Assembly: GCF_021028975.2 (NCBI RefSeq)
Contig: NC_059440.1
Coordinates: 24,428,001 to 24,492,000, forward strand
Direction: 5' to 3'
Length of the DNA stretch: 64,000 nucleotides
Source: Sphaerodactylus townsendi
Taxonomy: Eukaryota
Shown: piece by piece, positions 1 to 58,371 of the stretch
How positions within the stretch are numbered: the stretch's first letter is position 1
Layout of the letters: the number at the start of each line of letters is the position of its first letter
Notes under the pieces: model-generated
Told to the model about the DNA's origin: nothing
Databases searched by the model: none
Seen by the model: only the letters and a program-made list of their open reading frames with translations
Position numbers and translations under genes: made by a program

Positions 1-146
1 GACCTGCAAGTCGCGCCGTAATAGCTGTTTCCAATACGAGGAAGCGAGCGGAACTACCTCCTGAGCAGGTGAAAGCACCGGAAGGCACCCCTCTCGAAGG
101 ACCAACAGGAGCTTCACAGCCAGGCCCCGGGAAAGACGAACTGTAG
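1..146 (+). CDS. P3H1: 3' end (last coding exon, 5'-partial) of prolyl 3-hydroxylase 1 (leprecan)
   Basis: Open frame 3..146 reads PASRAVIAVSNTRKRAELPPEQVKAPEGTPLEGPTGASQPGPGKDEL*, ending in the ER-retention signal KDEL. P3H1 ends in KDEL and lies directly upstream of CLDN19 on the same strand in human. Candidate ATTAAA at 765-770. Identity rests on KDEL plus synteny only. Confidence 0.72.
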   Translation, partial: PASRAVIAVSNTRKRAELPPEQVKAPEGTPLEGPTGASQPGPGKDEL

Positions 147-5279: not shown

Positions 5280-5930
5280 CGACGGGGCTCCCACAGACGA
5301 CTTTGGCAGCGCTCGACTCCCAGTTTGCAGAAATCCTGAGTTAGCCCACCCTGCTCCCCAGCAAAAGACGGCGGGGGTGGGTGGGGGAAGGCAGTTAAGC
5401 CGGCGCCCCTCCCTCCTCCCGCTCCAGAGCCAGCCTAGCAGCGTGGGAGGGAGCGGGCCGGCGCGGTGCCCGGGCAGGGGCGGCCCCTGGCATCGCGGTG
5501 CCCGGTCGGAGAGGCCAGCTGGCTGCCTGTCGCCTGCCTCGCTCGCTCGGTTGTCCGTCCGTCCCGTCGGATCCTGTCGGTGCCGTCGGTCGCGGGGGGG
5601 TCCCGATGGCCAGCGCGGGCTTGCAGCTGGTGGGCTACTTCCTGGCGCTAGCCGGCTGGGTGGCCACCATCTGCGCCTCGGCCCTGCCTCAGTGGAAGCA
5701 GAGCTCGTACGCCGGGGACGCCATCATCACGGCCGTGGGGCTGTACGAGGGTCTCTGGATGAGTTGCGCTTCGCAGAGCACTGGCCAGGTCCAGTGCAAG
5801 CTGCACGAGTCCCTGCTGTCGCTCGACGGTGCGTCCGCCGCGGGGGTGGAAGGGGCCGGGGCGGGAGGGAGGCCGAACGGGGAGCTGGGTTGGTGGGGGG
5901 CGCCTCTTGCCCGGGGGGGGGGGGGGGGAA
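5280..5930 (+). promoter_or_regulatory. CpG island / promoter of CLDN19
   Basis: Sharp rise in GC and CpG content spanning the upstream region and exon 1. Confidence 0.7.
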
Positions 5931-8900
5931 GTTGCAGCAAAAGAATGGGGAGTATGGACTGCCAGCCAGGACCCATTGGGTTGGAGTTGCACTCGCCTCC
6001 TCCTGCATGAGTTGGCCAGTTTTAACAGGGTCTTTTGACAGCATCCCAAATGGGATCAGGGGTCTCCAGTGGGGTTAAGAGGGGTGGGCTGTAAGGTGGA
6101 GGAACAGGGTTTGATTCCTCACTCATCCACATGAGCTGCAGAGACATATCTGGTGGACCGGATTTGTTTCCGCACTCCTACATTCCTGCTGGGTGACCTT
6201 GGGCCAGTCACAGTTCTCTCTGAACTCTCTCAAGCCCCACCTGCCTCACAAGGTGTCTGCTGTGGGGAGAGGGAGTTTGTCAGCCACTGAGTTTCCTTGC
6301 AGGAGAGAAAAGCAGGGTATAACAAAGTCGTGATGGGGCAGTGGGGGGGAGGGGCGGGGGAGGGCAGAGGGCTTGCTTGCCTGCCAAACTATTCACCTGA
6401 GGCGTGATAAAATTGGCATCATTCATCACTGACATGTCTTTTTAGAAAGATAGATTAAAATGCTTCTCTGAAATTAGCAAGGGAGTGTGTGTGTGGGAGG
6501 TGTGCGTGCATGCGTGTGTGTGTGTTTGACAAACTGAAATTAACCTGAGTGGGGAGAAGTACTCTACCGGTGCTGTTGAAGTTCTGGGATTGGAAATCCT
6601 GGGTTTTTTTTTTTTTTTAACCTTTGCATCAACAGCAAGGGGGAAGACCAAATCTAGGCCCCTTCCGCACATGCAGAATGATGCCCTTGCAATCCACTTC
6701 CAATGCACTTTGCAGCTGGATTTTACTGTGCGGAATAGCCAGATCCACTTGCAAACAATTGGGAAAGTGGATTGAAAGTGCATTATTCTGCATGTGCGGA
6801 AGGGGCCTTAGAGCAGCAGCATGATGCTGGTCGTGGAAGGGTTAATCTGACCTGTGCTGCCCCCTCTCTCTGTTGTTTTTAGCCCAGCAGAGAAAACAAG
6901 ACAGGTGTCTGCAACCCTTCCCCCCTTGAGGAGCTAAATGCACAAGGAGAGCAATTTTAATCAGGAAAACTGGGCAGGGGAGTTCCCTCCCTCCCCCATC
7001 TACAAATCCCCCCCCCCATGATCTACAAATCCCCTTATCTGTATCAAGAGTTGCAACCATAGACTCCCACCAGCATAATTTTGGTCCTGCAAAATTAAAG
7101 TCAGCTGAACAGTTGTTTGCCTGCCTCCCCTGGAAGTTGCAAAGACTGGGTTTGTGCTTTGCTTCTTTCCTTCGCTTTGCAGTTCATATGCAGACTTCGA
7201 GAGCTCTAATGGTGGTCTCCATTCTGCTGGGCTTTGTGGGGGTCGTCGTCAGCGTGATTGGAATGAAGTGTACCAAAGTCGGGGACAAGAACCCCGTGAC
7301 CAAAAGCTGGATTGCCGTCTTGGGTGGAGTCTTCTTCCTGCTCGCAGGTAAACCAGAATTCCCTGCACCGTCCTACAGTGTGTGTGTTGTGACCGCTAGA
7401 ATGCTGACTTAAAGACAAGGAAAACCTGGCTTCAAAATCCTAGCGACGTGCATGGCTTTGGGCTACATTTTCTCAAGATGTCCTACCTTGCAGGGTTGTC
7501 ATAAAATGAGGAGGGAAGGGTTTGTGGGGGTAAGATGAGAAAATAATTAGACAGGTGTGAGCTTGTGTAACTGAGGCATGTTGGTTTTTCAACCGAACCC
7601 CTGAAAATGCTGTTAATTATAAAACCAGGTCAAGTTGTCCACCGATCTGAACATTAGCATAGAGAATCTACACAGAGAAGAGTGTAATCAGGTCATAATT
7701 CAGTAATTTGAAGGACAAATGTTGTCTTGAACACGGACATTCACTTGTCTGTGGCTCACCTAAAATTTATCTTGAATTTCTTAACTCCTCCCAACCGCAG
7801 TTTGCTTTACATCTAAAATTCCCAGAGATTTTGCTGTGCAATAGGTTTGATGAAAATTCAGCACATGTTCATGAAACATTCAGGCGCCAAGCTTCCATTA
7901 AAAAAGTGAATGGAAGTACGAGCAAGTTGCGCACCAATGGATAGTCAATGAAATAGGTCTTTACCATGAGATGCTTGAAAAGGTAAAGGTTGTCCCCTAC
8001 TCAAGCACCAGGGTCATTGTTGACCCATAGAATGACGTGACATCATGTCTACCCAAAGAAAAATTAGCTACTGCCTGCCAGCTGAAAACATCCTCATAGT
8101 CAGCAGTACAGCTAGTATGGCCCCTTCCACACACGCAGAATAATGCACATTCAATCCACTTTCACAGTTGTTTGAAAGTGGATTTTGCTATTCCGCATAG
8201 TAAAATCCAGCTTCAAAGTGCATTGGAAGTGGATTGAAAGTGAATTATTCTGCATGCGCAGAAGGGGCCTATAGTTGTCGGAAACCCTGAGGAGGAGGGA
8301 GGGATACAAAAAAAAAGGAAAAGGAGGGAATTTTTTCCCTGCTTACATATTTATTTTGATAGTGATCATTTCTCCCTTTCTTGACCAATCGTAAAATAAT
8401 GCAATTATGCCATTTTTTTTTAAAAAAGGGACTTCAAAAATAGTCCATAGCGTAACAAAAAATCAACATATTTGACATGGAAGGAGTTTTATATTTTTTT
8501 GCTTTTTATGGTATACCGGAGTGCTGTTGTGCTTCTGTGGAAAAGCAGAAAACAAGTTAATAAAATGTTTTGCCGTTCACTGCCTTCAAACAGAAGGGCT
8601 CTTGGAACGCGCAGATCTTTTCAAAGAACAAAGAAATCCTTTTTAAAAAACCTTCAATTTAAGAGAAGAGTTAAAGGCACTTATTACCTCAATTATGCGC
8701 CCCCACCCCCACCCAAAAAAGAACTTGCACATGAAAAATTCCACTGTAATTCTGTATCCTGTGAGGGCAATGTTGAGGTTATGTAGTCCAACATTGTCAT
8801 TACAGTAGTATTACAAAATAATAGTCATTAAACAAATGGAAAAAGATGAAGGAACAGACGTGCAGCAAAATAAAAACATACCTGTTTTCAAGCCCCCTTC

Positions 8901-11900
8901 CTTCTATTTACTTACTCCTGCCAGAGCTGTTAGTTCAGCACATTATACGTAAATGTCAGCAAACCCCAAGAAACAGGGTCACTAGTTTCAAGGTGTGGCC
9001 TAGAAAGGCAACTTCAGTTCCCTAGAGGAAATATCAGCTTCCAAAGAAGGGGAGGGGGATACAGCATCACCACAACACTGAGATCCCTTCCCTCCCTGAA
9101 TATTGTCCTTCCCACCACCAGAATTTCCCAAGCCCAACTTGGCGACTTACCCAGAAAGGAAGAGGCAATTCATTACACTACAAGTCACAAAATGGTCATT
9201 AAAGACATCACATCTTGGCAGTTGCTAAAACCATGTCCAACCACTTAACTTTTTCAGCTCAGCCTAAAGAAATGTGTTTTCAAGATGGCAGCTGCCATGG
9301 CCTGATTGCCGCTTGCTCAGAGGCTTAGTAAGGGCAGTAGGCCCAGCAGTGTTCTGTGGCTGATGTTTCACATTGCCATACCCCTTGCTGCTTAACGATT
9401 TATTGGCTGATGAAGAGGAAGGACAGATTGGTAAGCATAGGAAAGTAGCAGCCACTGCCTTTTTGGCACAGTGGGTCCTGAGCAGGAGCAATCTATCTGA
9501 GCAGTGGGGATTTTAGCAGCACTGAAAGCTGACAAGCCATCTGGGCCAATGCTAGAGTGTGTATGGAGACTATAACTTACGTTGATATCGCTTGAAAGCC
9601 AGCGTGGTGTAGTGGTTAAAAGCAGGTGCACTCTAATCTGGAGAACTGGGTTTGATCCCCCGGTTTGCCACTTGAGCTGTGGAGGCTTATCTGGTGAACC
9701 AGATTAGTTTGTGCATTCCAACACATGCCAGCACATGACCTTGGGCTAGTCACAGTTCTTTGGAGCTCTCTCAGCCTCACCCACCTCACAGGGTGTTTTT
9801 TGTGTGGTGGGTGGGGGGAAGGAAAAGGAGATTGTAAGTCCCTTTGAGTCTCCTTGCAGGAGAGAAAGGGGGGATATAAATCCAACTCTTCTTCTTCTTT
9901 TGGTGCTGAGATCAGAAAAGCTACACAGTGCCGTTCTAATTACAGTTGTAGCTTTCTAAAACCCAAATTACCCCTTAGGATTCGTAATGTGTAGTGTCTT
10001 GATAGCCCATCCCCCCCATACACACAGCTTTGTCTGAAATAGTCCAAGATCAGATGCAAGAGAATGCATTTCCCAAATGCACATACTCTGTACCACTGAG
10101 GCCCCTTCCGCACACGCAGAACAATGCACTTTCAATCCACTTACAGCGCACTTTGCAGCTGTGAGGAATAGCAACCTCCACTTGCAAACAATTGTGGAAG
10201 TGGACTGAAAGTGCATTATTCGGCATGTGCGGAAGGGGCCTGAGCCACTCCACCCCTTCAGCACCCTGCCTGCTTAAGCTATCAGGATCTAGGTAGCTAC
10301 TGTTAAATAGCTGCACAGGCCGGTTGAAAAATTGGCCATCTTGACTTTTTGAAGTCGAGCAACCATAACTGTGTTCTCTAAGGGGAAAAAATTTAGATAC
10401 TTTGAGTCTTCCTCTGTGTTCCCAGGTTTGTGCACAATGACGGCTGTTTCATGGTACGCGACACGAGTGACGGTCGAATTCTTTAATCCGAGCACGCCAG
10501 TTAATGCCAGGTGAATAAATGTCATGTCTAACCATTGCCAAAGGGAGGGCAGCGTGTTGGCCTTCTACAGGCCCAGTTTGGAATGGGGAATATGCAGAGT
10601 CAGTGTAGCCCTGACGACAGCAAATTCCTGCATTTAGACATGGGTGTTCCACAGTGATGTAGGAAAGAAATGCAAGAGATTGCAGTATAAGACACGAGCC
10701 GACGTCTGAATGCCCTGGGACAAAAACACGCTAATAGTTATTTACTCCACAAATCAACAACAAAGCTGAAAATCTAAAGAAATTACAAAAATGTGGCCAG
10801 AAGATAAATAGCAAAATATGAACAGTAAGAAAATATATACAATAACAAGAAAATATTTGCAGTACAACAACAACAGCCTTTGTTGGCACTGAACGTTAAA
10901 AGTTACAGACTTTGAGTCACGTATCCTCATAGCAATTGAGAGAAACTTGGCTACCCCCACTGTTGATATAATTTATTCAGTCGGTTGTAATGGGTGGTAA
11001 TTTATTACGGTATATTAATATGTTGTAATGTGTGACAATATATTGTTATTCCTGTAGATGTTTGTGTCTGTTTCTGTTTAATCTCCCATGGAGTAAATAA
11101 GAATTTGTGCATTATCACTGTTGGAAGCCATGAAGGAGCTAGAAAAAATTCCTAAGCGTAAGGATGTGTCGCTGGCAAAAAAGATCAAGTTAATTCCTGC
11201 CACGATGTTTATCCCTGTTTCTGTGTTTGGGTGTGAAACTGGACAACGCTGACAGGAAGAAAGTAGATTCCTCTGAAATGAAGTGTTGGAAGAGAGTGTG
11301 ACAGAGGCCCCTTCTGCACATGCAGAATAACACATTTTCAATCCGCTTTCAGTGCACTTTGCAGCTGTGCGGAAGAGCAAAATCCATTTGCAAACAGTTG
11401 TGAAAGTGGATTGAAAGTGCATTATTCTGCATGTGCAGAAGGGGTCAGATACCATGCAATGCCAAAAAATCAAATAAGTGGGGTCTAGATAAAATTAAGC
11501 CTGAACTCTCCCTAGAAGCTAAAAATGATTAAACAGGATTGTTGTGAATCAAAAGAGGAAGGCCAAAAATGTGATTGGTCCTTTGTCAAGAGATGCCCTC
11601 TGGCATGAGCAACCATTTCTCTACCACCAAACACACGAAGCCGAGACCAGCCACTGATCCAAACAGTCCACTTATATGATTGGCTCAATGATCCCCAAAT
11701 GATAGACGCATTCCAAAGTCTATTATGAAGGGTGTTTTTCCCCCCAGCTGTTCTACCTTTTTAACAGGAGATGCTCTGCGACTGAGCATGGAGTCTCCTG
11801 CATGCCCTCACCTGCTGAGCCATAATCTGGATGACCTTGGGATGCTGCTGTGCATCTTTTTAAGCGCAGCCAGCCAAGGTTACAGCTTGGTTTGCACTCG

Positions 11901-12081
11901 TTCAACCCTCTCTTTTTGCCGCAGGTATGAATTTGGGCCTGCTCTGTTCGTCGGATGGTCGGCGGCCAGTTTGACCCTGCTCGGAGGGTCTTTCTTGTCC
12001 TGTTCGTGCCCCAGACCGGAAGACAGAGGACAACAGTACTATCGACAAGCGCAGCCTTCGACGACTAGAGAGTATGTCTGA
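5606..12081 (+). CDS. CLDN19: Claudin-19 (209 aa)
   Basis: Exons 5606-5828, 7183-7347, 10426-10510, 11925-12081, all GT-AG, 630 nt in frame. Protein [18 protein letters not shown]...[39 protein letters not shown]...[23 protein letters not shown]...REYV matches the CLDN19 signature. ATTAAA at 12657-12662. Confidence 0.95.
6068..6322 (+). mobile_element. tRNA-derived CORE SINE, degenerate
   Basis: Same family, more diverged. Confidence 0.7.
6657..6807. mobile_element. PIF/Harbinger-type MITE (~140-150 bp, long TIRs)
   Basis: TIR GGCCCCTTCCGCACATGCAGAAT; 3-bp flanks CTA/TTA. Confidence 0.85.
8119..8269. mobile_element. PIF/Harbinger-type MITE
   Basis: Same TIRs, TSD TAT. Confidence 0.85.
9598..9900 (+). 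mobile_element. tRNA-derived CORE SINE
   Basis: Full-length copy. Confidence 0.85.
10100..10240. mobile_element. PIF/Harbinger-type MITE
   Basis: Same TIRs, TSD TGA. Confidence 0.85.
11100..11580 (+). mobile_element. Degenerate RTE/BovB-like LINE fragment interrupted by a MITE
   Basis: Decayed coding traces resembling 'CW.R...[20 protein letters not shown]'. Confidence 0.55.
11306..11446. mobile_element. PIF/Harbinger-type MITE
   Basis: Same TIRs, TSD AGA. Confidence 0.85.
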
Positions 12082-19609: not shown

Positions 19610-22600
19610 ATGGCTGCGCTGGTGTCACAGATGTCTTTCTGTGTGGCTTTGGTCTCCACCCTCTTCCTGATTTCAGCCACTTGGACCGACTGCTGGATGG
19701 TGAATGTTGATGACACCATAGAGGTGAGCAGAAACGGGAGAGGCCAGTTTTAAAAGACCAACATGAGCCCAAATGCAGTCAGAGAAAAACATGACTCCTT
19801 TGCATCCCTTCCAGACCCTTCAGAGCTGGTAGGTTTGGTTTCTTCCTTTTAGAAGAATAAGAATTTGGATTTATACCCCACCTTTCCCTCCTGTAAGGAG
19901 ACACAAGGTGGCTTGCAAGCTCCTTTCCCTTCCTCTCCCCACAACAGACACCTGGTGAGGCAGGTGGGGCTGAGAGAGTTCTGAGAGAACTGTGACTAGC
20001 CCAAGGTCGCCCAGCAGGAATGTAGGAGCGCAGAAACGCATCTGGTTCACCAGATAAGCCTCTACCACTCAAGAGGAGGAGTGGGGAATCAAACCCGGTT
20101 CTCCAGATTAGAATCCATCTGCTCTTAACCACTACACCACGTTGGCTCTTTTAGGCATTCCTTCTGTTTCTAAGGGATTCACTGTCATATCAATTGTTTG
20201 TAAACCACTGAGGTGGTTTTTTGAGTGGGAAAGTGGGATATAAGTCCTTAAATTAAAAAAGAAACAAATGAAAAGTTATTCTCTGAATCCAATGTTCTTT
20301 GATTTTCAACATTCCTATACAGCAAGATAGGGTCCAGTTTACATCAGAGGGACCTTCCTAGTTTAGGACAGCTCCCTGAGTCTTGGGAGGGAGAGAATCC
20401 CAGAATCCCTCACACTTATTGCAAAGGACTTTGGGAGACTCTATCATTTGGCTCCTGAGTTATCTCCAATTTGGCTAGGCTTTGCACAAGTAAAAGGCTG
20501 ACTGCGGAGGGGTGGAACCAGGGAGGTGTTTGTGCCCCACCATATGACCAGTCCTGGGAATCTCTAGAGCAGGCCATGCAGAGCTCTTCTGCCCTTTCTC
20601 TGTCCCCATGCAGGTCAGCCAGAAGTGCCGAGGGCTTTGGAGGGAGTGCGTCAGCAACTTGAAAGACGGCATCAAGACCTGCGACCTGCACGATTCCATT
20701 TTAGCAGAACATCCCCGTAAGTCTCCATCTACGGATAAGAAGAAGAGTCCTCTTCACCCCTGGTGGCCTCAGACAGTGGTTTTAAACTCTGAGCAATTGC
20801 GTCTCCCTGGCGCTCATTTTATCCAGCAGTGGTTTGCTCTCTTCCCCCCAGTCAAGATCGTGGTGACGCGGGCCTTGCTGATCACGGCAGACATCCTCTC
20901 GGGCTTCGCTTTGGCTCTGCTGGTGCTGGGCCTCGACTGCATCAAGTTCCTGAAGGACGAGCCACAAGTCAAGCTGAAGATGTGCTATTCGTCCGGATTG
21001 GTGCTGGGGGTCGGAAGTAAGCGTTTGGGGGAGCTTGTGCCGCTAATAACAAGCCAGATTTCTTCAGGGGAATTACACTGGATGGTTTGAGGCATAGCTC
21101 ACTGGCAGAGGCATACCAGGGGAAAATGGTGCCCTGAGCAACACCTGCTCGGGGCGCCCCCCATGCCCCCTCCGGTCCCATTTACCTAAGCTGCTGCTGG
21201 CGGTCCCAGGCAGCCTGGCAGGGCCAGGCCTGGCGGGGCTAGACTGAGAGGTGCCTGGTGGGCCGCTCCTTGGCTCCATCCTACCAGGCTGCTCTTTCAG
21301 CCGGCAGAGCCTCTGACAGCTTTAGGAGCAGCCTGGCAGGGCCGAGTCAAGGGGCAGCAGGTCAGTTGATCCCCCATGTCAGTCTGACAGTTACGCCCAG
21401 TGGTGGGATCCAAAAATTTTAGTAACAGGTTCCCATGGTGGTGGGATTCAAACTGTGGCGTAGCGCCAATGGGGCTGGGCGGGGCACAACGGGGGCATGG
21501 CCGGGCATTCTGTGGGCGGGGCATTCCTGGGCGGGGCGGGGCAAGGATGCAGCCACTGCACCGGTCCTTGGGCGCGAAACGAATGCACGCAGGCGCAGGC
21601 TGCCACGCATGCTGGTGCACTTCCTGCTAGACTGCTTCAAGTTCTGCGCGCTACTGCTGAGAGGAGGGGCGTAACTAAGGCGAAAATCACGTGGGAAAAT
21701 CACCAATTAGTAACCCCCTCTCGGCACACACAAATAATTAGTAACCTACTCTCGGGAACCTGTGAGAACCTGCTGGATCCCACCTCTGGATACGCCCCTA
21801 CTCACTGGACCTCTTTGCCTGCCAGGTGTCCTCGGACTAGTGGGCTCGGTGTGGTACGCCATTGACGTCTACCTAGAGAGGATCAGGCTGGCGTTACACA
21901 ATGTATTTTTGGGTGTCCATTACGATTTTGGCTGGTCCTGCTGGTTGGGAATGGCAGGATCCACAGGCGGCCTTCTGACTTCCATCGTGTTGACCTGCTG
22001 CCTTTATTCCCTCACAGGTTAGTATTTATTTCACTTGCGACTCAGGTGCCCTCTAGATCAGGACCCCTGCCCACAGTGTAATCAATGCTTTGTATATTTC
22101 GCCCTCCAAAATAATAATCAGAAAAGAGCTGACAAAATTAGCAGGCAAGACGGAATGGAGCGTGCTCAGAAAATGGCAGCGAGGAGGAAGACCAGAGATG
22201 CAGAGAGGGAAACGTCTTAAAGAGATCACACAGCAAATCAAAACGTTTTCAAAACGTTCCAGCAAAAGAATTGCTATTCTCGAGAATGCGTTCAAAACAT
22301 TTTCAGGCTGGAAAGAAAACATGTTTTGGGGAAAAAACTATGTGGAATCCCTCGGAGAAAATGTTTTTATTTCCTGCCTCAAAATGTTTTAAAGTGTTTG
22401 TGTGGAAAGGGCAAAAGGGTTCTAGTCCAAGACAAGGCTGTCAGGGATGCGAGTCCCAGGCAGAGAAGAACTTTAAAGGACCAGAGTTTTGAATGCTCAA
22501 TATTCTAATTCTTCCATCACAGCTGATGCCACTTCCTCCCGGAGACCTCACCGATTCACGTTCTGTTCGCGGGCGGCCACCTGCAAGATGTATGCCGTCG

Positions 22601-22614
22601 CTTCTCGAGTGTGA
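19610..22614 (+). CDS. Claudin-16-like protein (CLDN16 paralogue, 221 aa)
   Basis: Exons 19610-19723, 20614-20716, 20852-21016, 21826-22017, 22523-22614 (114/103/165/192/92 nt), all GT-AG and in frame. Motifs [68 protein letters not shown] and C-terminal KMYAVASRV are diagnostic of the CLDN16 (paracellin-1) family. Confidence 0.92.
19852..20147 (-). mobile_element. tRNA-derived CORE SINE
   Basis: Full-length copy of the second subfamily (CACTCCTACATTCCTGCTGGG variant). Confidence 0.85.
21398..21788 (+). mobile_element. Non-autonomous hAT element (~390 bp)
   Basis: TIRs CAGTGGTGGGATCCA / TGGATCCCACCTCTG; 8-bp TSD GTTACGCC/GATACGCC. Confidence 0.88.
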
Positions 22615-22911: not shown

Positions 22912-25900
22912 TCACAGGTACGTGCCTTTGGAAACAGGAGGGGGAAACCGAGGGCTCTGATCCTTTCTTAGACTCTGGGCGTCGAGAGAGCTGGCAGCGA
23001 TCAGCAAAATCCCAGCAGCGCAGGCACAAGCAGCACCACCTGCAGCCATCCAGTAGGCACAGCCGAGTTCATAAGTCACACCTGGAATTCCTAAAGTCAC
23101 CTGGAAGAAAACTGAAGCAGTGAGCAAGCTGGGGCAGGGTGTCCATCAATCGACCGATCACATTGGTAGCCCACCTTCCCTTCAAGGAGCTCAGGGCCGC
23201 AAACATGATTCTGTCCTGGCAACTGGCCTTTACAACAACCCTGTGAGGTAGGCTAGGTTAAAAACCAGCATCCGGCCTAAAGTCATTCAATGATCTTTAC
23301 GGCAAGGTGGAGATTTGAACCTGAGGCCATCTAATTTCAGTCCAACGCTCTAGTCATGATACCATACCGGCTGTTGGAGTTAGAGCAGTGATGGCGAACC
23401 TTTTCGAGACCAAGTGCCCAAATTGCAACCCAAAACCCACTTATTTATCGCAAAGTGCCAACACGGCAATTTAACCTGAATACTGAGGTTTTAGTTTAGA
23501 AAAAATGGTTGACTCAGAGGCGTGCGTTACTCGGGAGTAAGCTTGGTGGTAGTCGGTGGCTTGGCTTTGAAGCAACCATGCAACTCTCCCAACGGATGAA
23601 TCAAGACCCTAGGAGGGTTTGCTCAGAAGCCAGCCCCATTGCCAGCAACCGAGCTTACTCCCAGGTAAAGGATCGCGCTTTAGTTCTTTGCATGAAAATC
23701 AGTGGGGTTTAACAGCGTTTAGCAGGGTTACCTACACTGCTTCCCCAAAATGAGGTCTTAGGTTTAATGCTAATAATCAAGCCCAGTGGCCCAGGCCAGC
23801 CTGGATGTGTGTGGGGTGGGGGGGACTCTGTTTTCGCGTGCCCACAGGGAGGGCTCTGAGTGCCACCTCTGGCACCTGTGCCATAGGTTCGCCACCACTG
23901 GGTTAGAGTGTCAGACCCAGGTTCGAATCCTCACTTTGTCATGGAAGCTTGCTTGGCTACTCTTGGCTGGTTATTTCCTCTCCACCTAACATACCTCACG
24001 GGGTTTCTGTGGCAGAGAGAATGCTTTAAACAGTTTAGGATTTCTGTCGGAGAGAATATCTAAATCGACAGCCAGTGCAAGGTTAAACCTTGGGATGGGC
24101 TTGGAAAATCCCTCACGAGCCCAAACATGGTGAATTTTTGTCAGACAACAATGCGGACGGCTAATAGGAATTTGCCTCAAACAAATAATTCTCTCCCGGG
24201 GGGGAAATCTGCTGTTTTCTCATAATATTAAACCACAATGAGCTTTAGTCTGTGGCTTTAGACCATACGTTCATATACATATATATATGCATTCATTCCT
24301 TTCATGGCTCAGTTTTTTAATGCTAGCGATTGTTCTGGGAAACAACACAGACAAACAGTCGATTGTGAGGAGACGCACATTAATATTAAAGCGGGGGGAG
24401 GGGGAGTTGCATACCCTTCAAAAAAACATAGAAAAATATGTTTCCTTGTACAGTTGGTAATACTGCATTGTCGTTCAATTTCATCATCTAATTCAGGCGT
24501 GTCCAACTCTGGTGCTTTTTCAGTGGAGAAATAATGCCCCCACCCAGTGGTGAGTTTCAAATAATGTAGCAACTGGTTGTTTACAAGCACCATTTTAACA
24601 ACCGGTTCTGCCGAAGTGGTACGAACCTGCTGGATCCTACCACTGCCTCCACCCCCGTTATGATGAAGATGCTATTGAGAGAAGAGCTCCAAAAGGGTCA
24701 GGTTTTTTAAAATGGCAATCCTGCAGTGTTTCACCTCCAAATCTCCAGGAGTTTTCCAACATGGATCTGGTAACCGACACTCTGGCCCATTCCCTATGGG
24801 GGACCTGGTAACCCTAGCTCAGCCACAACCCGTTCCCTTAAAACAGCTGAATAGGGTCTCCCTCATCTGACACTTTAACATCCACTATATCGTAGAGATT
24901 GTACTGTATATTTCCTGTACCTTAGTGCCCCTGTTCTAACCTTCCTAACTGCCTCCAGGAACCGAATTTACCTCTAATTTATACTTCTGCACGGTGTCGA
25001 TACCATACCAAAGGACAGCGATTGCACCAGCTAGACCTAGGGAAGAGAGAAAAATATTGCGTGTTGACTGCAAACTTTATCTCCCCCGATCCTGTGCCTT
25101 TAACAACAAGTAATAATACATCAACTTAGTAGGAGAAGCATTTCTTGGCCAGAAAAGGCAACAGGATTTGACCCACATTATTGTACACTCCACTTCTCCC
25201 CATTCACTCTTCACCGCACAGTATTCATTTGCTCAGCAGCGATCCAACGTATGGTAGTTATTCTTTCCAACTTATCCACCATGGTGGCTGATTTCCTACC
25301 TCCACATCCTACTGGAGCAAGGATGGGAGAATGGAGGTATTTCCAGGTAAAAACCGGAAAGTGATATCACCCTCACTCTAATATTTTGCTTTTACCATAG
25401 AGATTAGCAAAATCCTAGAGTATCAGTTACATCACTTCCAGGTTTTAGCCAGATGTGATGTCGGTGCTGATGCATCAACAACATATTTTTCCCCCATGTC
25501 CCACCCTCCAAAGTCTCCCAGGGATTCCAAGAAGAGGGAATCTGAGGGGGTGGAGACATAGGGGAGGGCCATCAGTGGGATGGCATGACATCACTTCCTG
25601 TGATCTTTTGTCTGCATTTTTCTCCCACAGGCCACCACTCAACAATAGGGAAAGCCATTAGGATCTCTCCTGGTCTCGCAGTTTGTGGCTTGGCTCTTCA
25701 GCCTGAGCCACTTGGCTGTTCAGTCATGAGCAAGCTACTTGACGACTGCTTTTCCCATGTAAGGAGAGAATATCAGCCTGCAGGTGGGACCTGTGGATGC
25801 CTCAGAATTACAGACTACAGAGATTTGTTCCCCTGGAGAAACTGGATGCTTTGGAGGGTAGACTCTGGTCCCTTCCGCACATGCAGAATAATGCACTTTC

Positions 25901-28900
25901 AATCCACTTCCACAATTGTTTGCAAGTGGATTTTGCTATTCCACACAGCTGCAAAGTGCGTTGAAAGTGGACTGAAAGTGCATTATTCTGCATGTGCGGA
26001 AGGGGCCTCTGTGGCATTGTACCTCACTGAGATCCCTTGCCCTCCCCCGTTTCACCTGAAAATCCCCTGCTGAAATCCCCTGCTCTCCCTGCTGAAATTC
26101 TGTGCGTAACTTGTTGCCAAAGGCACAGAAAGAGACCCAGTCAAAAAGGTGGCATTTGTTAGAAACGTGTTCGTGTTTGAGATCTTCCCAGAGCCGCAGC
26201 CCAGACAGAATAAGTTTGACTCACTCCCGCAAGAAGACTAAAGCCTCACTTACCTCCCAGGAGGAACAATGTCCCAGCTGCCAGGGAGAACTTGTATTTC
26301 CACAGGACTTTGTCACGAATCAGTTTGGTGCATTTCATCCCAGCAATGAAAAGGGGCATGGCGGCAAGCGTCAGGAAGCCAGTAAGGATGACCAAGACCC
26401 GGGTGGCCACAAAGACAGCTGCAAATAGAGGGGGGGAGTGATCATGGCATCTGAGGAAAGAAAATACCACCAGGGGCCGAGCAGCCAGAACTCTGCACTA
26501 GTGATCATTTTTGCCCACCTTGTTTGCAATTTTCTTTACGCAAACTTTTGCAATACAAATACTAACTCTTTTCCCCAATGGCATAAAAACAGGGTGTTTT
26601 TTTAAAAGACACACGTTGTACCTGCCACTATTTACCATCTTATATTATTCATAAGCAAACAATAAGATATATCGACAACAGTGCAATCTCAAGTACAACA
26701 ATCTTAACACATCAAAGTACTCTACAACGTATATACACTCAAGACGTCCTGTCATATATTGCAGAATTCGCCAGGGTTGCCAACCTACAGCTGGTGTCTG
26801 GAGATCTGCCAGAATTACAGCCGGTTGCCTGACAATGGAGATCAGTTTCCCCAGATGAAATGGGAGCTAGAGTTAACAGTGAATGCTAAGGCTCAACACA
26901 ACCTATAGATGTAGCATGGTAACCTGCGGGAGATATAGTATGTTGACCTGCTGGTGGCCTAAGCAGAGACTTAGGTTAATACACAGCGTGGTGGTTAATA
27001 CACAGCGTGGTGTAGTGGTTAAGAGCAGGTGCACTCTAATCAGGAGAACTGGGTTTGATTCTCTGCTTCGCCACTTGAGCTGTGGAGGCTTATCTGGTGA
27101 ACCAGATTAGCTTGTGCACTCCAACACATGCCAGTTGAGTCACCTTGGGCTAGTCACAGGTCTTTGGAGTTCTCTCAGCCCCACCCACTTCACAGGCTGT
27201 TTGTTGTGGGAGGGGGGAAGGGAAAGGAGACTGTAAGCCCCTTTGAGTCTCTTTACAGGAGAGAAAGGGGGATATAAATCCAAACTCTTCTTCTACTACT
27301 ACTTGGATGACAGAACACCAAGGAATTCCAGGGTTACTATGCAGAGGCAGGTGACTTCTGAAGCCTCTTAGCCTACGGAGTCACCATGATTGGCTGTAAC
27401 TTGACAGCACTTGCCGCCACCACCAGTCAGACAGTGTAAGATTGTTTTGAATAGTGGACCAGGTTTTGAGTGCAGAAGATCCTGTATCCATTCCTCAGTT
27501 TAAAAGATCTCGGATAACAGATCTGGGAATGGCCCCTCCCCGAAGTTCCTGGCATAAATAAATACCATGAACCTGGCTTCCTGGTTGTGTCTGGTCAACA
27601 AAGTGTTGTCGTTCGTTTGCTGTATTTCAAAGTCTGCTTCTGAAATTCCAATATGACCTGGAGATTCCATCCGAGATATGGATAAGGTTTCCCACCCACC
27701 CAAATAACTCGGACTCATTTTCCTTACCGGGGTGTTCGCTGAGATAGGAGATAGGAATATCACAAGTCCAGAGGTCAGCCACGTTATCAAATATGCACTC
27801 ACTCCACAGACCCCGGCATCGGACGCTCAAGCCCACAGAAGATAAAGGATCCTTGGCGTCTTGCTGTACAAGGGAAATTTTTGGATAATGCAAATATAGG
27901 AAAAAATAGTGAAATGGAAAAAAAGTAAATTAAATGAAGAAATATCTAAATACATTTTGTAGAACCAGGTCTGGATGGTTCTACAAAATCCCCCCACCCC
28001 CAGAATTATTTTTAAAGCTTTATAATTTGCAACATTTCCATTTGCAAAATTTCTAATTTTGTTGGCCAGGAAGGGGAGGGGGGATTTCACCTGTCACTTT
28101 TTAATCAGCAAAGTTCTATATTTATAACCCTCCCCAAAAAAGTTGATATTTTGCAAATGCTACTCCCAAAATGTGCCAAGCCATAGCCCCTTTAAGGATA
28201 TTTTAAAATGCTTCTGTGATCCCGAAATCTCCCTAGCGCTACAGTGATTAAGCACAGCTTTGGGACCCTGCGAGATACCTTAAGGGCATTGTTATTTCTC
28301 TGAGGAAACTGCAAGGGATAAGCAGAATGAAGCTTCCAAACCAACATTAAATAGTTAACTAAACTTGGCATCATGCTAAACCTAAGAATTAATTTTAAAA
28401 CATTAAAAACACATAGATCTTTGAGCTTGGCAAGAGGGTTCTAGAAGTTTCTATCAGTCATGAGGCGAGTTTCCATTAACTTATTGGATGCCCATCTTTG
28501 AAATATGGTGAACCTCCTTGTGAGGAAGGCTGAGGACAGTGTAAAAAATAGAGAGAGGGGAGTGTGTATGTGTGTGTGTGTGTGTGTGTGAAACACCCAC
28601 AGAATAAAGTGAATTGTTCCTCTCTTTTTGACCTTTCCAGGAGCACAGCAGATGCCACTGGCATTTATTGCCACCAATATATTTCTCAGGGCTTAGTGTT
28701 CCCATGACGATGGCATCATTTTCTCTTTTTTAAGCAGCTCGGCCAAAGTATTTCTTTGGTTCCAGCGTGAATGGAATTACCATCTATATCTTCTCAGGGA
28801 GAAAGGGGAAGGGACAATATTAGTTTGAAGACCAAAGTCTAGGGCCCCTTCCGCCCATGCAGAATAATGCATTTTCAATCCACTTTCACAACTATTTGCA

Positions 28901-30004
28901 AGTAGATTTTGCTGTCCCGCACTGTAAAATCCAGCTGCAAAGTGCATGGAAAATGGATTGAAAGTGCATTATTCTGCATGGGGCCTAGGTTAAGACGTCT
29001 GGGGAAAATGCCTCGTCCTGTTGCAGCTGACTTGGTGGGGGGGTCTCTTATGGGAAATCCTAATTCAGGCTCAAAGCAAAATTGTGTGACGCTGAGATGC
29101 ACCTGCATTTGTTCAGCTTCTGAATTTTTCAGTATTGCCTTTCTATCCTATCTCATTACTTTGATGCCCCCTTTGTATGGACGATTTACACCAATTGCGC
29201 AAGATGATCAAGTTGCCCCCTAGGATCTGTCCATCGGTCTTCCCTCATGCTGTGTATCCCCAACCTGTTTCCTTTGTTACGAAAGGGTTCACATTTTGAG
29301 AATAGTTACCTTTTAAGAATAACTGGAAGATAGGAGTAATTGATGCGTGCACCATTATTGAGTGTACCAGCGTTACATTGTGTTATAGCTGTGATCGTCA
29401 GTTGCACAAGCTAAAATGAACTTTTTGAACAGTACGGTGAATGGTTAGGCAGAGAGACTGGGACCCCCCCCCCCCCCACACACACACACACAAGCTCCCC
29501 CACTGTGGTCATTTGGGATGCCTGCCACCAAATCCAACCCAATTCATTCATTCATTCATTGAATTTCTATACTGCCCCTCCCCTGATGGGCTCGGGGCAG
29601 TAAACTTCATGATACTTCACGATATAAAACCAAATATCTAAAACTATATCAGTTTTTTTGATTGTCAAGATATGAGCTTTGATGGTGCTCGGATTCTGAA
29701 AGACACAGTGCAACGGTTAGAGCGTCGAACTAGAGCAGGGGAGACCTGAGTTCAAATCTCCCTTCAGCCATGAGTGACTTGGGATCATTTACTCCCTCAA
29801 GGGACAGCCCAGCCTGCAAGGCAGTTGTCAGAGACCCATTTACACCCCCATAAGCAGGTGGGATGCAATGTATTTGACAGAGAGAAAGTTAATTCCTACC
29901 CGCCAGCAATCTGATTCGGCACACAGGATGAGAAGCAGAAGGCCCGAGACCCCCAACGCCATCGCCAACATATCCGCAGCCAATGCAGGTGCTGTGATTT
30001 TCAT
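22912..30004 (-). CDS. Divergent claudin family protein (CLDN16-related ECL1, 219 aa)
   Basis: Minus-strand exons 30004-29900, 27863-27728, 26418-26254, 25036-24972, 23100-22912 (105/136/165/65/189 nt), all GT-AG and in frame. Protein MKITAPALAADMLAMALGVSGLLLLILCAESDCWRQDAKDPLSSVGLSVRCRGLWSECIFDNVADLWTCDIPISYLSEHPAVFVATRVLVILTGFLTLAAMPLFIAGMKCTKLIRDKVLWKYKFSLAAGTLFLLGGLAGAIAVLWYGIDTVQKYKLEVTLGIPGVTYELGCAYWMAAGG...SKGTYL has four hydrophobic segments and the W-GLW-C-C claudin signature. Confidence 0.9.
23386..23900. mobile_element. Non-autonomous hAT (Charlie-like) element
   Basis: TIRs CAGTGATGGCGAACCT / AGGTTCGCCACCACTG; TSD AGTTAGAG/GGTTAGAG. Confidence 0.88.
24545..24645 (+). mobile_element. 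Short hAT MITE related to 21398-21788
   Basis: CAGTGGTG...GAACCTGCTGGATCCTACCACTG; TSD CCCCCACC/CCTCCACC. Confidence 0.7.
25867..26007. mobile_element. PIF/Harbinger-type MITE
   Basis: Same TIRs, TSD TCT. Confidence 0.85.
26983..27302 (+). mobile_element. tRNA-derived CORE SINE
   Basis: Full-length copy with a short duplication at the 5' junction. Confidence 0.85.
28843..28985. mobile_element. PIF/Harbinger-type MITE
   Basis: Same TIRs, TSD TAG. Confidence 0.85.
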
Positions 30005-32367: not shown

Positions 32368-33760
32368 GTAAAAACCTGCTTCCGAGGGAATCGTTGCTGA
32401 TTGCTTGGCAAAACACCTGCCCGGCAGCATCCTGGGTACCAGGCCCTCTGGGCAGGGATGCAGTAAAGGAAGGGATACTTTAGAAAAAGCGCTGGAAAGG
32501 GGGTGGGGAGGATGTTAGAGTAGGGAAGAGAGAAAATGTAAGTGCATCTCTGTGTGCACATGTTGTGGAGTTTCTGCTTCCCCAAGAGAGTGACCATGAC
32601 GGGGGATTTCTGCAAGTGACCCTTGTGGTCTCTTCCAACTATGATTCTATGATTCTGTTAGGGCCAAATCCTCAAGGGGTTCATCACATTCCCAGCCCTG
32701 TTTCCTAGATTTTCTGGTGTTAAAAACCAAAATAAGGTGCTAGCAATAAAAGCACCGGCAATTTTTTTGGGGGGGAGGGCGGTCTTATTTGTGAAAATAT
32801 TTGCACCTTTCAAAATAATTCTGGTGATAATCAGACTGACAAAGATAACATCACTCAAACATAATAAAATATATGTGCAAAGTGTACTTCGTTACTCTGT
32901 AAGGTATAGACCAGGTCTCTGCCTTTCACTGTTTCTAACAATGAGTGCGAAAGTGCTGGAATGATTGACAAGCACCTGGAACTTTTAAAAACATTATTTA
33001 TTTAGTTATTTAGTTATTTTGGATTTGTATCCTGCCCGATCCCTGAAAGGCTGTGGGGGGTTACAACACAAGTCAAACAATGCATAGATATTAAAATATA
33101 AATCCTCATTTAAATTAACTTTAAAAATGATTAAGATGTGTTATTAAATATAGCACACATTTCAGAGTTAGATTTGTGCTGTTTCATTTTGACTCAGAAT
33201 CTCCTGTATTCTTCAGGTCTCACTTATCAAACTGCACAGAGAACACTATGCACACTTATTGTTCCTCGTGGTTGGTTGTTTCTTGTGAGTGGGGGGCATT
33301 AAAAATATAACATGCACACCCACACACACAGGCTGAGGTCCAGATAAAACTGTGCCACTTATTCGTCTGATTATATCAAAGGGTCCTTAAAGGCCATTTG
33401 ACACATATAACAGGTTGGAATGCGATGGCAGATTCATGAGTTCATACAATGGCTTTAGCACTAATTTTTAGTTTCCCTGTTTGTTTGTTTTAAAAAATCC
33501 CCAATTGCAAGTAGAAAACAAGTTTGCAGGTGAAATGCTTTCCTAGAACCTTTATTCTTGATACAGTAGTTTTCTCCTTGCAGGGAGTTCTCTATCAAAA
33601 GTCAATCCCATTGCCACCTACAGTATAAAAAAAGGTACAGCTGTTTTTGCTATCCTCACCTGCCTGTATAGATGGAATCTTAAGTCCTCCTTGTGTCCCA
33701 GCGGCATTAGAAACCACATCAGTTCTAAGCAATGTTTTGTTCCTTGTAGGAAAACCCACA

Positions 33761-36700
33761 ATGATCCCTCCCGCCGTGACCACGCCTTCCAGCGATGTGA
33801 TCTTCCCTAGCCTTACTGCTCAGGAACTGTGGCGGCCCCAAGTGACAGGCTACGCCGGCTCCATCACCCGCCACATCAGCCACCGCGCCAACAACTTTAA
33901 ACGACACCCAAAAAGGCAGAAACATATCCGGCCGTCCCCTCCCCCTCCGCCGAATACCCCTTGCCCTATAGATCGAATCCACTTTGGGGAGCTCCACCCT
34001 CAGCGATCCTTTCTGGAACTGTTATTCAATGGGTTCATCCTTTTTGGGATCGAGTTCAGCTATGCCATGGAGACCGCCTATGTGACTCCAGTATTGCTGC
34101 AGATGGGTTTACCAGATCAGCTGTATGGGATGGTTTGGTTTATCAGCCCAATTCTAGGTAAGTTGTTCTGCGGTCTGACAAAAAGTTATTTGCCTGTAAG
34201 GACTATGAAAATCTGTGGGGCTCAAATGTATCACAGCCAACTTAGTATGGAAAAAAAAGCAGCTGGGTCAATATGAACCCATTGTCTCCTGATTCAGACT
34301 CCTGTGTTATCTACTCTGACTGTGGTTTTGGGCATAGAAGAGTTTTTCCCAACTTTTATTTCTGGACTGAAACTGAGGAATGAGCTTGGCAGCTTAACAC
34401 AAATCTTTCCCACTTCCCTGAATGTACTTCCTAATAAACATTTACCTTACACCCTTTTAAGCGGTGTGTTAGCTGCTTCTCTGTGTAGTAAACTCCAACC
34501 AGATGTGTTTCTCTCCGTGGCACGGTGTGGAGTGACTGTATGGTGGGCTATATGTTTTGCCCACCTGACAGAGATTTAGTTGGTATGGAGGAACATTTGT
34601 TGGTATGGAGGAACACCCCACCCCATATATAAAGTGTCTCAGCTCAGATGCAGGCTGGCCACCTGTCAGGTCTTCAGACTGAAGTCAATAAATGGACTCT
34701 GGATTCTTGATCAGAAGTCTTTATTGGACACAACTAGTACCTGGTTTTTTGCAAAGCCAGTTCTGCCAGGTTATGGAAATACAGCCAAATTTTTCCCTGA
34801 AGATTCCCACCCTCCCTGTTTCCCATGGAATGTGAAAACAACACAACCAGAGGTGGGATCCAGCAGGTTCTCACAGGTTCCTGAGAGTAGGTTACTAATT
34901 ATTTGTGTGTGCCGAGAGTGGGTTACTAATTGGTGATTTTGCCACGTGATTTTTGCCTTAGTTACGCCCCTCCTCTCAGCAGTAGCGTGCAGAACTTGAA
35001 GCAGTCTAGCAGGAGGTGCACCGGCGTGCGTGGCAGCCTGCGCCTGCGTGCATTCGTTTCCCGCCCAAGGACTGGCGCAGCGGCTGCATCCTTGCCACAG
35101 CCCCGCCCAGGAATGCCCTGCCCCCAGAATGCCCGGCCACGCCCCATTGGCGCTATGCCACATTTGAATCCCACCACCATGGGAACCTGTTACTAAAATT
35201 TTTGGATCCCACCACTGAACACAACTGAAAGAAAGATGTTTGGGAGTCGAGTATCTCAAGGACAGCGCAATGATAGTGTTCAGCCACCTGCCCCGCTGGG
35301 CCGGTACCAGGGTTGCTTCCAGTTTAGCTACAGTTACAAGCATCAAAGGAAATGAAAGAGCATGGAAACATATTAAAGGTGAAGACACTTCCCCCCTTCC
35401 CACAGACAGGTGTGAGCCCTTGCACCTCTCCACAGTCACTGATGTCAGGCCCTTTCCTGACACCTCCTTGCTGAGACTTAGACCTCCCTGTGCCAAATTG
35501 TTCCCAAAGCTCCCCAGCCAGACCAGGTTGAATGTTGCTGATGATTCCATGCTTTCTCTCCTCGCAGGATTCCTACTGCAACCCTTGCTGGGGGCGTGGA
35601 GTGACAGGTGCGGTTCCCCCTTTGGCAGAAGAAGGCCTTTCATTCTGGTTCTGGCTATTGGTAATGTTGTTTTTAACTTTCACTCTGCCGAGGCAGCTCG
35701 GCTTGGGCAGGCTGCCATAAAAACAGCACTGTCTGGGCTTTGCCAAATGCCATTTCTGCAGGTACTTGCACAGGTCCTTTATCCTTGTTGGCTACTGCCG
35801 GGCATCGTTTGGATCACGGGCAGCTTCAGCAGGATTCAAAATCTTCTTAGGATCAGATAGCAGGTTTTGGACAGGGAGAAAGAGTGATTTGCAAGAGGCC
35901 ATAACTTGAAGTCTCAAGCCAGAGCAGGGAGCAAATTGCTAGAGAGTAGAAAGTTACAAGTGCAAAGACATAAGTTCTAATGGAGGTAGTTAGTCTGCAT
36001 GGGGGTTGTACTGAATGTTCCTCTGTACAAAAACAGCATCACTGCACATAGAAAATTACCATTGTCAAGGATAAAAGCTAGGCTGAAGCCCTTCTCTTTG
36101 ACAGAGCAATTTTACATCTGTGGAGAATGATTTGTTTTAAAGGACGAGCATTCAATCAGCAAGGTGGTTAAGAGCAGCAGATTCTAATCTGGTGAACAGG
36201 GTCTGTTTAATTTTAGTCCAGTTTACTATCTCACCCTTTCCGGGGCACAGGTCAGACTCAGGGCAGCTAACAACAACATTGACATAACAATATCATATAC
36301 AATAATTCTGTAAAGCATTTAAACACACAACTTAAAAGCATAAATAACTTTCAGTAACACCAATAAAACATGATAAATCCAATTGCACCAGTGATATGTA
36401 ACTAAAATTCATTGTCAATTCAATTGGGTATTTATTACTCCATGAATTCAGCTCTCGCCTTTCAGTAATGGTCTAAATTGTAATAGTAAGAAAGAGGGGA
36501 GTGTTTCTCCACTCCTCAACATGAAGCCTGCCAAGTGACCTTGGGCCAGTCACAGTTCTCTCAGAACTCTCTCAGCCCCACCTTCCTCACAAGGTGTCTG
36601 TTGTGAAGAGAGGAAGGGAAGGAGTTTGTAAGCCACTTTGAGACTCCCTGTGGTTAAGAAAACTGGGATATAAATCCAAACACCTCCTCCTCCTTCAGGA

Positions 36701-49560: not shown

Positions 49561-50081
49561 TTTGGTGGTAGAGGCAGGAAACTAGTCCTCAATGAGGTGG
49601 CAATTTATCTTTGGTAGTTCTTAGGTCGGGGGGGGGGGGCTGGATTTGAAATGCTGCCCCCTCCACATATGCCCCCAAACCAATTCCTCCCTGTTAAAAA
49701 AGCCCCCTAAAATTACATTTTAAATTAAAATTAAGATAAAATTTTAAATTACACAAAATTACACACATCACACAGCAGCATGACCCTAGGGTTCATTTAT
49801 TTATTTATTGGATTTATATTCTACCCAATCCCTGAAGGGCTCTAGGCGGGTTACAGCAAGCTTAGAACATTAAAATATGGCTCTCAGCTCAAACTGGCTG
49901 AACACATCATTAACAACCAGCGGCCCATGCCATTAGCAGACAGTTATTCTGGTTGATTTCACAGCTGCCAGTTCTTTAGCTGGTTGTTGGCCTTTCATTA
50001 CAATTATTATTATTAAATATTATTATCCTTACAGCTCTTTCCTTCTCTTGTGGTTCCGAGAGCAGAGAAGAGGCTGCAGCA

Positions 50082-51283: not shown

Positions 51284-51322
<39 letters not shown>

Positions 51323-54300: not shown

Positions 54301-54728
54301 TATGCATCTAGTCAATTTGTAAGCCGTCCCTCTTCTGAAAATGCATTGAAAATGCTGGGGGGAAGAATTAGGACTAATAAAAGGAAACACTTCTTCACGC
54401 AACGTGTGATCGGTGTTTGGAATATGCTGCCACAGGAGGTGGTGACGGCCACTCACCTGGATAGCTTTAAAAGGGGCTTGGACAGATTTATGGAGGAGAA
54501 GTCGATTTATGGCTACCAATCTTGATCCTCTTTGATCCGAGATTGCAAATGTCTTAACAGACCAGGTGATCGGGAGCAACAGTAGCAGAAGGCCATTGCG
54601 TTCACATCCTGCATGTGAGCTCCCAAAGGCACCTGGTGGGCCACTGCGAGTAGCAGAGAGCTGGACTAGATGGACTCTGGTCTGATCCAGCTGGCTTGTT
54701 CTTATGTTCTTATGTTCTAAGGAACTGA

Positions 54729-54767
<39 letters not shown>

Positions 54768-58307: not shown

Positions 58308-58371
<64 letters not shown>

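What the first reader, a model, noticed from the sequence alone, without database searches (positions are those of the whole stretch)
19610..22614. CLDN16 paralogue beside P3H1-CLDN19, probably a whole-genome-duplication ohnologue of the P3H2-CLDN1-CLDN16 block
Seen: the first four coding exons (114/103/165/192 nt) and the motifs follow the CLDN16 pattern, but TM1 and the C-tail are clearly diverged, and the gene sits next to CLDN19 and a KDEL-ending P3H1-like exon. Established (recalled): human 3q28 carries P3H2, CLDN1 and CLDN16 together, and CLDN1 and CLDN19 are paralogues. Inference: this is a second paracellin retained from 2R duplication. ECL1 keeps the acidic D34, D35, E49, D56 and E70 but has R48 and K55 and DLHD where I recall W, F and DEYD in human, predicting altered charge selectivity.
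Basis: partly seen in the sequence, partly recalled or inferred. Interest (0 to 1): 0.72.

Follow-up and report, generated by a model that had tools for sequence, protein, structure and literature searches.

The report
Ancient second claudin-16 beside claudin-19
This is an intact second copy of the kidney tight-junction gene claudin-16 that split from the familiar one before sharks and bony vertebrates diverged, likely in a whole-genome duplication; it survives in reptiles, birds, frogs, eels and sharks, was not found in placental mammals, and is predicted to form a less cation-selective pore.

Summary
The finding holds. A five-exon, intact 221-aa claudin lies at 19610-22614 (+), 7.5 kb downstream of CLDN19 and P3H1. 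Trees put it in a clade running from chimaera to birds that is separate from canonical CLDN16. A moved orthologue and a squamate-only duplication are rejected (AU p 4e-9, 4e-10). Twelve of 13 species checked carry both copies. This genome has exon 1 of canonical CLDN16 on an unplaced contig, and 44.5 kb of assembly filler beside CLDN1 where the rest is expected. The two blocks share paralogues (P3H, CLDN19/1, TP73/TP63), so a whole-genome duplication is likely. Which round is unresolved, and gene order is not collinear. All five acidic residues that matter in human CLDN16 are kept. Of the flagged changes only R48 is clade-wide (amniotes); K55 is gecko-only, and H64 occurs in this protein alone. 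Expression and function are untested. Databases already label such proteins 'claudin-16-like' or plain 'claudin-16'; I found no paper describing the clade.

The parts
19610..19723 (+). Claudin-16 paralogue (gene A) exon 1: start codon, TM1, start of ECL1
20614..20716 (+). Gene A exon 2: ECL1 with the GLW motif, both cysteines, R48, E49, K55, D56, E70
20852..21016 (+). Gene A exon 3: TM2, intracellular loop, start of TM3
21826..22017 (+). Gene A exon 4: TM3, ECL2, TM4
22523..22614 (+). Gene A exon 5: C-tail ending S-R-V (class I PDZ-type end) and stop
5606..12081 (+). CLDN19 (exons about 5606-5828, 7183-7347, 10426-10510, 11925-12081); neighbour and likely partner
3..146 (+). Last coding exon of a leprecan/P3H gene (P3H1 by recalled synteny), ending KDEL; the rest of the gene lies left of the window
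22912..30004 (-). Gene B: second, divergent claudin-16-like gene, tail-to-tail with A (exons 30004-29900, 27863-27728, 26418-26254, 25036-24972, 23100-22912; 219 aa, intact; 30% identical to A)

Best explanation
The gene is an intact paralogue of claudin-16 that split from canonical CLDN16 before the jawed-vertebrate radiation, likely as a whole-genome-duplication copy, and it likely works as a tight-junction subunit of a paracellular cation pore, predicted to pair with CLDN19 and to be less cation-selective than CLDN16. Shown: gene model, claudin fold, separate shark-to-bird clade, both copies in many species, paralogous neighbours on both chromosomes. Inferred: whole-genome rather than large segmental origin; tight-junction location; Na+ permeability through the five conserved ECL1 acids; side-by-side pairing with CLDN19 through TM3/TM4; weaker selectivity from a less negative ECL1 (net -3, against -8 in squamate CLDN16); loss in placental mammals.
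For: Origin. ML trees give two clades, each spanning cartilaginous fish to amniotes: paralogue 99/98 and canonical 99/96 (30 rows); 89/97 and 97/96 (35 rows, mixture model). AU tests reject a moved orthologue (p 4e-9) and a squamate duplication (p 4e-10), and independent chondrichthyan (p 0.0036) or tetrapod (p 1.7e-111) duplications. Twelve of 13 species pairs hold one protein of each class; lamprey scores 365 against 367 bits. Own genome: canonical exon 1 on C1359 is 38/39 identical to leopard-gecko CLDN16. C8 carries an IL1RAP-family TIR gene, 44,519 bp of C15A filler, a CLDN1-like gene, a P3H paralogue and TP63. C16 carries P3H1, CLDN19, gene A and TP73 about 13 kb beyond the window. A bird database entry fuses CLDN19 with this paralogue (P0199), which suggests the same adjacency there. 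Function. All five ECL1 acids reported to carry Na+ permeability in CLDN16 (D104, D105, E119, D126, E140; passage in PMC3867513) are kept, as are both cysteines and a PDZ-type end. Three of 7 CLDN19-interface positions (passage in PMC4666130) are identical.
Against: There are no expression or functional data for this gene. Lamprey can be placed with either clade (p 0.365 and 0.364), so 1R against 2R is open. The paralogue clade reaches only 86-89 ultrafast bootstrap when distant outgroups are included. Blocks are not collinear: P3H is upstream of CLDN19 but downstream of CLDN1. The place of canonical CLDN16 beside CLDN1 is not shown here; it rests on recalled human order plus the filler. Four of 7 interface positions differ, including P200 to L in 29 of 29 sauropsid paralogue rows against P in 51 of 51 canonical rows. 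Whether the R48 and K55 side chains face the pore was not determined. Claudin-18 also has R at the R48 position, so R there is not unusual among claudins.
Confidence: 0.7

Rival explanations
1. Same ancient paralogue, but repurposed in amniotes: it no longer pairs with CLDN19 or conducts cations, and acts as a barrier or modifier claudin, possibly outside the kidney.
For: W48R is fixed in 35 of 35 amniote paralogue rows, P200L in 29 of 29 sauropsid rows, and ECL1 net charge drops to -3/-4. The branch to sauropsids is long (0.18-0.20). The marsupial copies lost E49 and E70.
Against: All five functional acids are kept in this protein; ECL1 is 37/48 identical to gorilla CLDN16 and TM4 19/26; linkage to CLDN19 is kept.
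Confidence: 0.2
2. The copy arose by a large segmental duplication in stem jawed vertebrates, not by whole-genome duplication.
For: Gene order and orientation differ between the two blocks. Only the neighbourhoods and three other gene pairs were examined.
Against: P3H has three copies on three contigs (C16, C8, C7). The TP73/TP63 regions are a textbook 2R paralogon (recalled). The age fits.
Confidence: 0.08
3. It is the genome's only CLDN16, moved next to CLDN19, or a recent squamate copy.
For: Searches found no exons 2-5 of another CLDN16 in G000, and its source labels P0001 plain 'claudin-16'.
Against: AU p 4e-9 and 4e-10; canonical exon 1 on C1359; assembly filler at the expected site; both copies in three other squamates.
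Confidence: 0.01

Closest known systems
Claudin-16 / paracellin-1 (CLDN16)
   Same: 55-60% identity to mammalian rows, 114-nt first exon, ECL1 with five functional acids, 10-residue spacing between the cysteines, PDZ-type end.
   Different: Separate clade; sits by CLDN19/P3H1/TP73; R48, K55 and L63 in ECL1; L for P200 in TM3; tail about 14 aa shorter, probably the ancestral length (lamprey 220 aa); ends S-R-V, not T-R-V.
Database 'claudin-16-like' proteins of birds, crocodilians, turtles, squamates, frogs, eels, chimaera and manta
   Same: Same clade; 62-83% identity for most full-length rows.
   Different: These are automatic labels only. The same label is also used for genes B and K and for some canonical shark and sturgeon copies. 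Some members carry plain 'claudin-16' (P0001, P0012, P0020, P0025, P0026, P0049, P0364).
Ohnologue pairs TP73/TP63, P3H1/P3H2, CLDN19/CLDN1
   Same: Same two chromosomal blocks in this genome.
   Different: Those pairs both survive in human (recalled); this partner was not found in placentals.

Membership tests
Claudin family (PF00822) | Four TM helices with ECL1 beta-sheet; W-GLW-C-C motif | tested here: met
   motif defined in PMC3875640 section 4
CLDN16 subfamily (broad) | Groups with CLDN16 and lamprey claudin-16 against other claudin-16-like families | tested here: met
   100/99 support against families B and K; classical claudins were not in the tree
CLDN16 orthologues (canonical) | Nests among canonical CLDN16 in a tree | tested here: not met
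   AU p 4e-9; profile scores 391 against 310 bits
CLDN16 orthologues (canonical) | Lies between CLDN1 and TMEM207/IL1RAP (recalled human order) | tested here: not met
   lies by CLDN19 on C16; the CLDN1-like and IL1RAP-family genes are on C8
Whole-genome-duplication ohnologue | Duplication older than crown jawed vertebrates | tested here: met
Whole-genome-duplication ohnologue | Paralogous flanking genes on two chromosomes | tested here: met
   P3H, classical claudin and p53-family pairs on C16 and C8; order not collinear
Whole-genome-duplication ohnologue | Canonical partner physically inside the paralogous block | tested here: inconclusive
   exon 1 on unplaced C1359; 44.5 kb filler at the expected site
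Whole-genome-duplication ohnologue | Assignment to 1R or 2R by cyclostome position | tested here: inconclusive
   lamprey outside both at 72/28; alternatives p 0.365, 0.364
CLDN16-type cation pore | Five ECL1 acids (human 104, 105, 119, 126, 140) | tested here: met
CLDN16-type cation pore | TM3/TM4 interface for CLDN19 (193, 200, 204, 236, 240, 244, 247) | tested here: inconclusive
   3 of 7 identical
CLDN16-type cation pore | Tight-junction location, kidney expression, raised PNa/PCl | not testable with these tools
   needs RNA-seq and electrophysiology

The most novel reading that the evidence does not exclude
The ancestral vertebrate locus held a CLDN1/19-type and a CLDN16-type gene side by side. 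After genome duplication, non-placental vertebrates kept a second paracellin next to CLDN19 as its native partner, amniotes retuned it (W48R, P200L), and placentals lost it, leaving the human CLDN16-CLDN19 channel as a cross-copy pairing with no backup. It belongs to an unnamed four-gene claudin-16-like family (CLDN16, this copy, B and K), three members of which lie on one reptile chromosome.
Probability: 0.3. Interest if true: 0.65.

Novelty: new member of a known kind. Interest (0 to 1): 0.45.

Why it matters
Claudin-16 with claudin-19 drives renal Mg2+/Ca2+ recovery, and its loss causes FHHNC. A natural second version that keeps all five key acids but has defined charge and helix changes offers a ready comparison for how this pore selects ions and chooses its partner. 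It also exposes hidden paralogy: several bird, crocodilian, gecko and marsupial entries named 'claudin-16' are this other gene, which can mislead expression and evolution studies. It is a new family member, not a new kind of system.

Tried and rejected
No RNA holder listed. The four runs laid on the locus behave as genomic DNA and show no splice joints, so expression is unknown. Whether the unplaced contig C1359 is present in read sets of the same organism was not established. Exons 2-5 of canonical CLDN16 were not found in G000 nor in 220 kb around CLDN1; true loss was rejected as unlikely because exon 1 is 38/39 conserved and the expected site is filler. TMEM207 was not searched. Marsupial claudin-16-like proteins fall in the paralogue clade (99/98), but grouping them with mammalian CLDN16 is not rejected (p 0.127), so their membership is likely, not shown. 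My recollection that the R48 position lines the pore in claudin-2 could not be checked (paper not held; 0 hits). Loh 2004 was not held; Baltzegar 2013 and a lamprey claudin survey (recalled) were not seen and may mention the gene. No complex was predicted, since no full CLDN19 protein of this genome was at hand. No earlier scan notes matched.

Full report
OBSERVATION. The window is G000:C16:24,428,001-24,492,000. Five exons at 19610-19723, 20614-20716, 20852-21016, 21826-22017 and 22523-22614 have GT-AG introns and give an open 221-aa frame. The product is identical to database protein P0001, which its source labels as a gecko 'claudin-16'. It matches PF00822 (47 bits, cut-off 26.7). An AlphaFold model from a 66-row alignment has four TM helices and the ECL1 sheet (pLDDT 73.6) and matches solved claudins best (TM 0.65-0.73). 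CLDN19 lies at 5606-12081 (best PDB match claudin-19, 128 bits against 78 or less). A leprecan/P3H gene ends in KDEL at 3-146. Two related genomes' runs showed six coding differences among the 40 of 521 rows displayed; five are silent, a weak sign of constraint.

IS THERE ANOTHER CLDN16 IN THIS GENOME? Searches with exons 3 and 4 of the gene found no close second copy. Searches with opossum and leopard-gecko CLDN16 found exon 1 on the unplaced 12.7-kb contig C1359. It is 38/39 identical to leopard-gecko CLDN16, 114 nt long with a GT donor, and scores 66 bits to the canonical profile against 48 to the paralogue profile. Exons 2-5 were not found. On C8 the order is: an IL1RAP-family gene with two TIR exons (112.95-112.98 Mb), then 44,519 bp of C15A filler (113,054,737-113,099,255), then a CLDN1-like gene (start 113,100,498; name recalled), a P3H paralogue (113.32 Mb) and TP63 (113.40 Mb). 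In human, CLDN16 sits between CLDN1 and IL1RAP (recalled), so the rest of the gene likely lies in that filler. This placement is inferred.

PHYLOGENY. One search gave 113 relatives of 385 candidates; one search gave 242, of which 120 were listed. I hand-picked rows for the trees: 65 (quick tree), 35 (mixture model), 30 (LG+G4) and 33. All show two clades, each with cartilaginous fish, ray-finned fish, amphibians and sauropsids. The window's protein pairs with the leopard-gecko 'claudin-16-like' inside the non-canonical clade. Support: paralogue 99/98 and canonical 99/96; 89/97 and 97/96 with distant outgroups. Two further tests, named after I had seen the trees, reject independent duplications in chondrichthyans (p 0.0036) and tetrapods (p 1.7e-111). 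Lamprey falls outside both at 72/28, and joining it to either clade is not rejected (p 0.365, 0.364). Profile scoring of 216 rows gave 110 paralogue, 103 canonical and 3 ambiguous (two lampreys and exon 1 of this gene alone). This is partly circular, as many rows trained the profiles. Twelve of 13 species pairs hold one of each class, from chimaera to opossum; the miss is a sturgeon with two paralogue-class entries. All 39 named mammal rows (36 placental, 2 marsupial, 1 monotreme) are canonical. Marsupial 'claudin-16-like' proteins surfaced only in the profile search. They sit in the paralogue clade on a long branch, but their grouping with mammalian CLDN16 is not rejected (p 0.127). Loss in placentals is therefore an inference from absence in these searches.

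SYNTENY. C16 reads P3H1(+), CLDN19(+), gene A(+), gene B(-), an SLC45A1-like gene(+; name recalled), MRPS16(-; PF00886), a coiled-coil gene, then TP73(-) about 13 kb past the window (136 bits to p73 against 119 to p63). C8 reads IL1RAP-family(-), filler, CLDN1-like(+), P3H(+), TP63(-). Three paralogue pairs besides CLDN16 link the blocks, and a third P3H lies on C7. This fits the TP73/TP63 2R paralogon (recalled). Order is not collinear: P3H is upstream of CLDN19 but downstream of CLDN1, so local inversions are needed. A bird entry fusing CLDN19 with the paralogue (P0199) suggests the adjacency is shared with birds.

MECHANISM. CLDN16 acts as a Na+ channel that pairs in cis with CLDN19 and depends on D104, D105, E119, D126 and E140 (PMC3867513, passages). 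All five are kept here. In a 97-row alignment, position 48 is R in 35 of 35 amniote paralogue rows, and W in 10 of 10 anamniote paralogue rows, lamprey, and 51 of 51 canonical rows. Position 55 is K in 4 of 4 geckos and Q in 25 of 25 other sauropsid paralogues. Position 63 is Q in 41 of 41 non-gecko paralogue rows and lamprey, and E in 40 of 51 canonical rows, so the human E is the derived state. H64 occurs in 1 of 45 paralogue rows. D62, aligned with the residue after the second cysteine that sets charge preference in claudin-2 (D65; PMC6888627, passage; correspondence by cysteine spacing), is kept. ECL1 counts (residues 27-74) are 9 acidic/6 basic here, mostly 9/5 in other sauropsid paralogues, mostly 10/4 in mammalian CLDN16 and 10/2 in 9 of 10 squamate CLDN16. 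A weaker cation preference is a reasonable prediction, and R48 is the lineage-wide candidate; side-chain direction was not determined. Of seven CLDN19-interface positions (PMC4666130, passages), G204, C236 and M240 are identical; 193, 200, 244 and 247 differ, with P200 to L in 29 of 29 sauropsid rows. Pairing with CLDN19 is thus plausible but open. I commit to a tight-junction cation-pore subunit that partners CLDN19 with reduced selectivity; every functional step is inferred.

Gene B lies on the minus strand at 30004-22912, 297 bp from gene A's stop. It has five exons, 219 aa, an intact frame, and is 30% identical to A. Relatives occur in squamates, turtles, amphibians, lungfish, gar, bowfin and teleosts; none of the rows I could name is mammalian. 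A third family (K) lies at C16:20.76-20.77 Mb and appears to share B's intron positions. B and K group together outside CLDN16, gene A and lamprey; classical claudins were not in those trees.

KNOWN OR NEW. Databases carry these proteins under automatic names. Six literature searches found no paper describing the clade. The one mention is a table row 'Claudin-16-like isoform X1' in an eel larval transcriptome (PMC8227761, passages), which does not say which paralogue. A chick survey lists 17 claudins with one claudin-16 (PMC3875640, first part of section 4). A teleost review has no hit for claudin-16 (PMC3875606, term search). PMC10991444 (passages) is not relevant. The main claudin phylogeny papers were not available, no supplements were read, and public gene trees probably already show the split. 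Verdict: a real, well-supported ancient paralogue and a new member of a known kind; interest 0.45.

Noticed in passing
window 22912-30004 (-): Second intact claudin-16-like gene (B), tail-to-tail with gene A, 30% identical, with different intron positions; a family from ray-finned fish to reptiles, unnamed.
   Followed up: partly
L065:4289-8188 and L066:1621-4048 (G000 C16 about 20.764-20.774 Mb, -): Third claudin-16-like family (K), grouping with B, 3.7 Mb away on the same chromosome; relatives in gecko, frog, lungfish and a teleost.
   Followed up: partly
G000 C8:113,054,737-113,099,255 (L030, L033-L036): 44.5 kb of near-perfect C15A repeat, an assembly artefact hiding the expected CLDN16/TMEM207 interval.
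   Followed up: yes
L023:4238-4351 (-), G000 C1359: Exon 1 of canonical CLDN16 on an unplaced 12.7-kb contig.
   Followed up: yes
window 20717-20851: Intron 2 of gene A is 135 nt, in frame and stop-free, so retention would insert 45 residues after ECL1; probably chance.
   Followed up: no
window 33600-45440 (+), 48116-48532 (-), 49900-60650 (+); L067: SLC45A1-like gene (name recalled), MRPS16 exon (PF00886), a coiled-coil gene (CCDC27-like by recalled synteny) and TP73 just beyond the window.
   Followed up: partly
P0230, P0362-P0367 (marsupials): Marsupial claudin-16-like proteins are fast-evolving and have lost two of the five functional ECL1 acids (E49, E70), perhaps a stage before loss.
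   Followed up: partly
P0001, P0012, P0020, P0025, P0026, P0049, P0364: Entries labelled plain 'claudin-16' that belong to the paralogue class: an annotation trap.
   Followed up: yes
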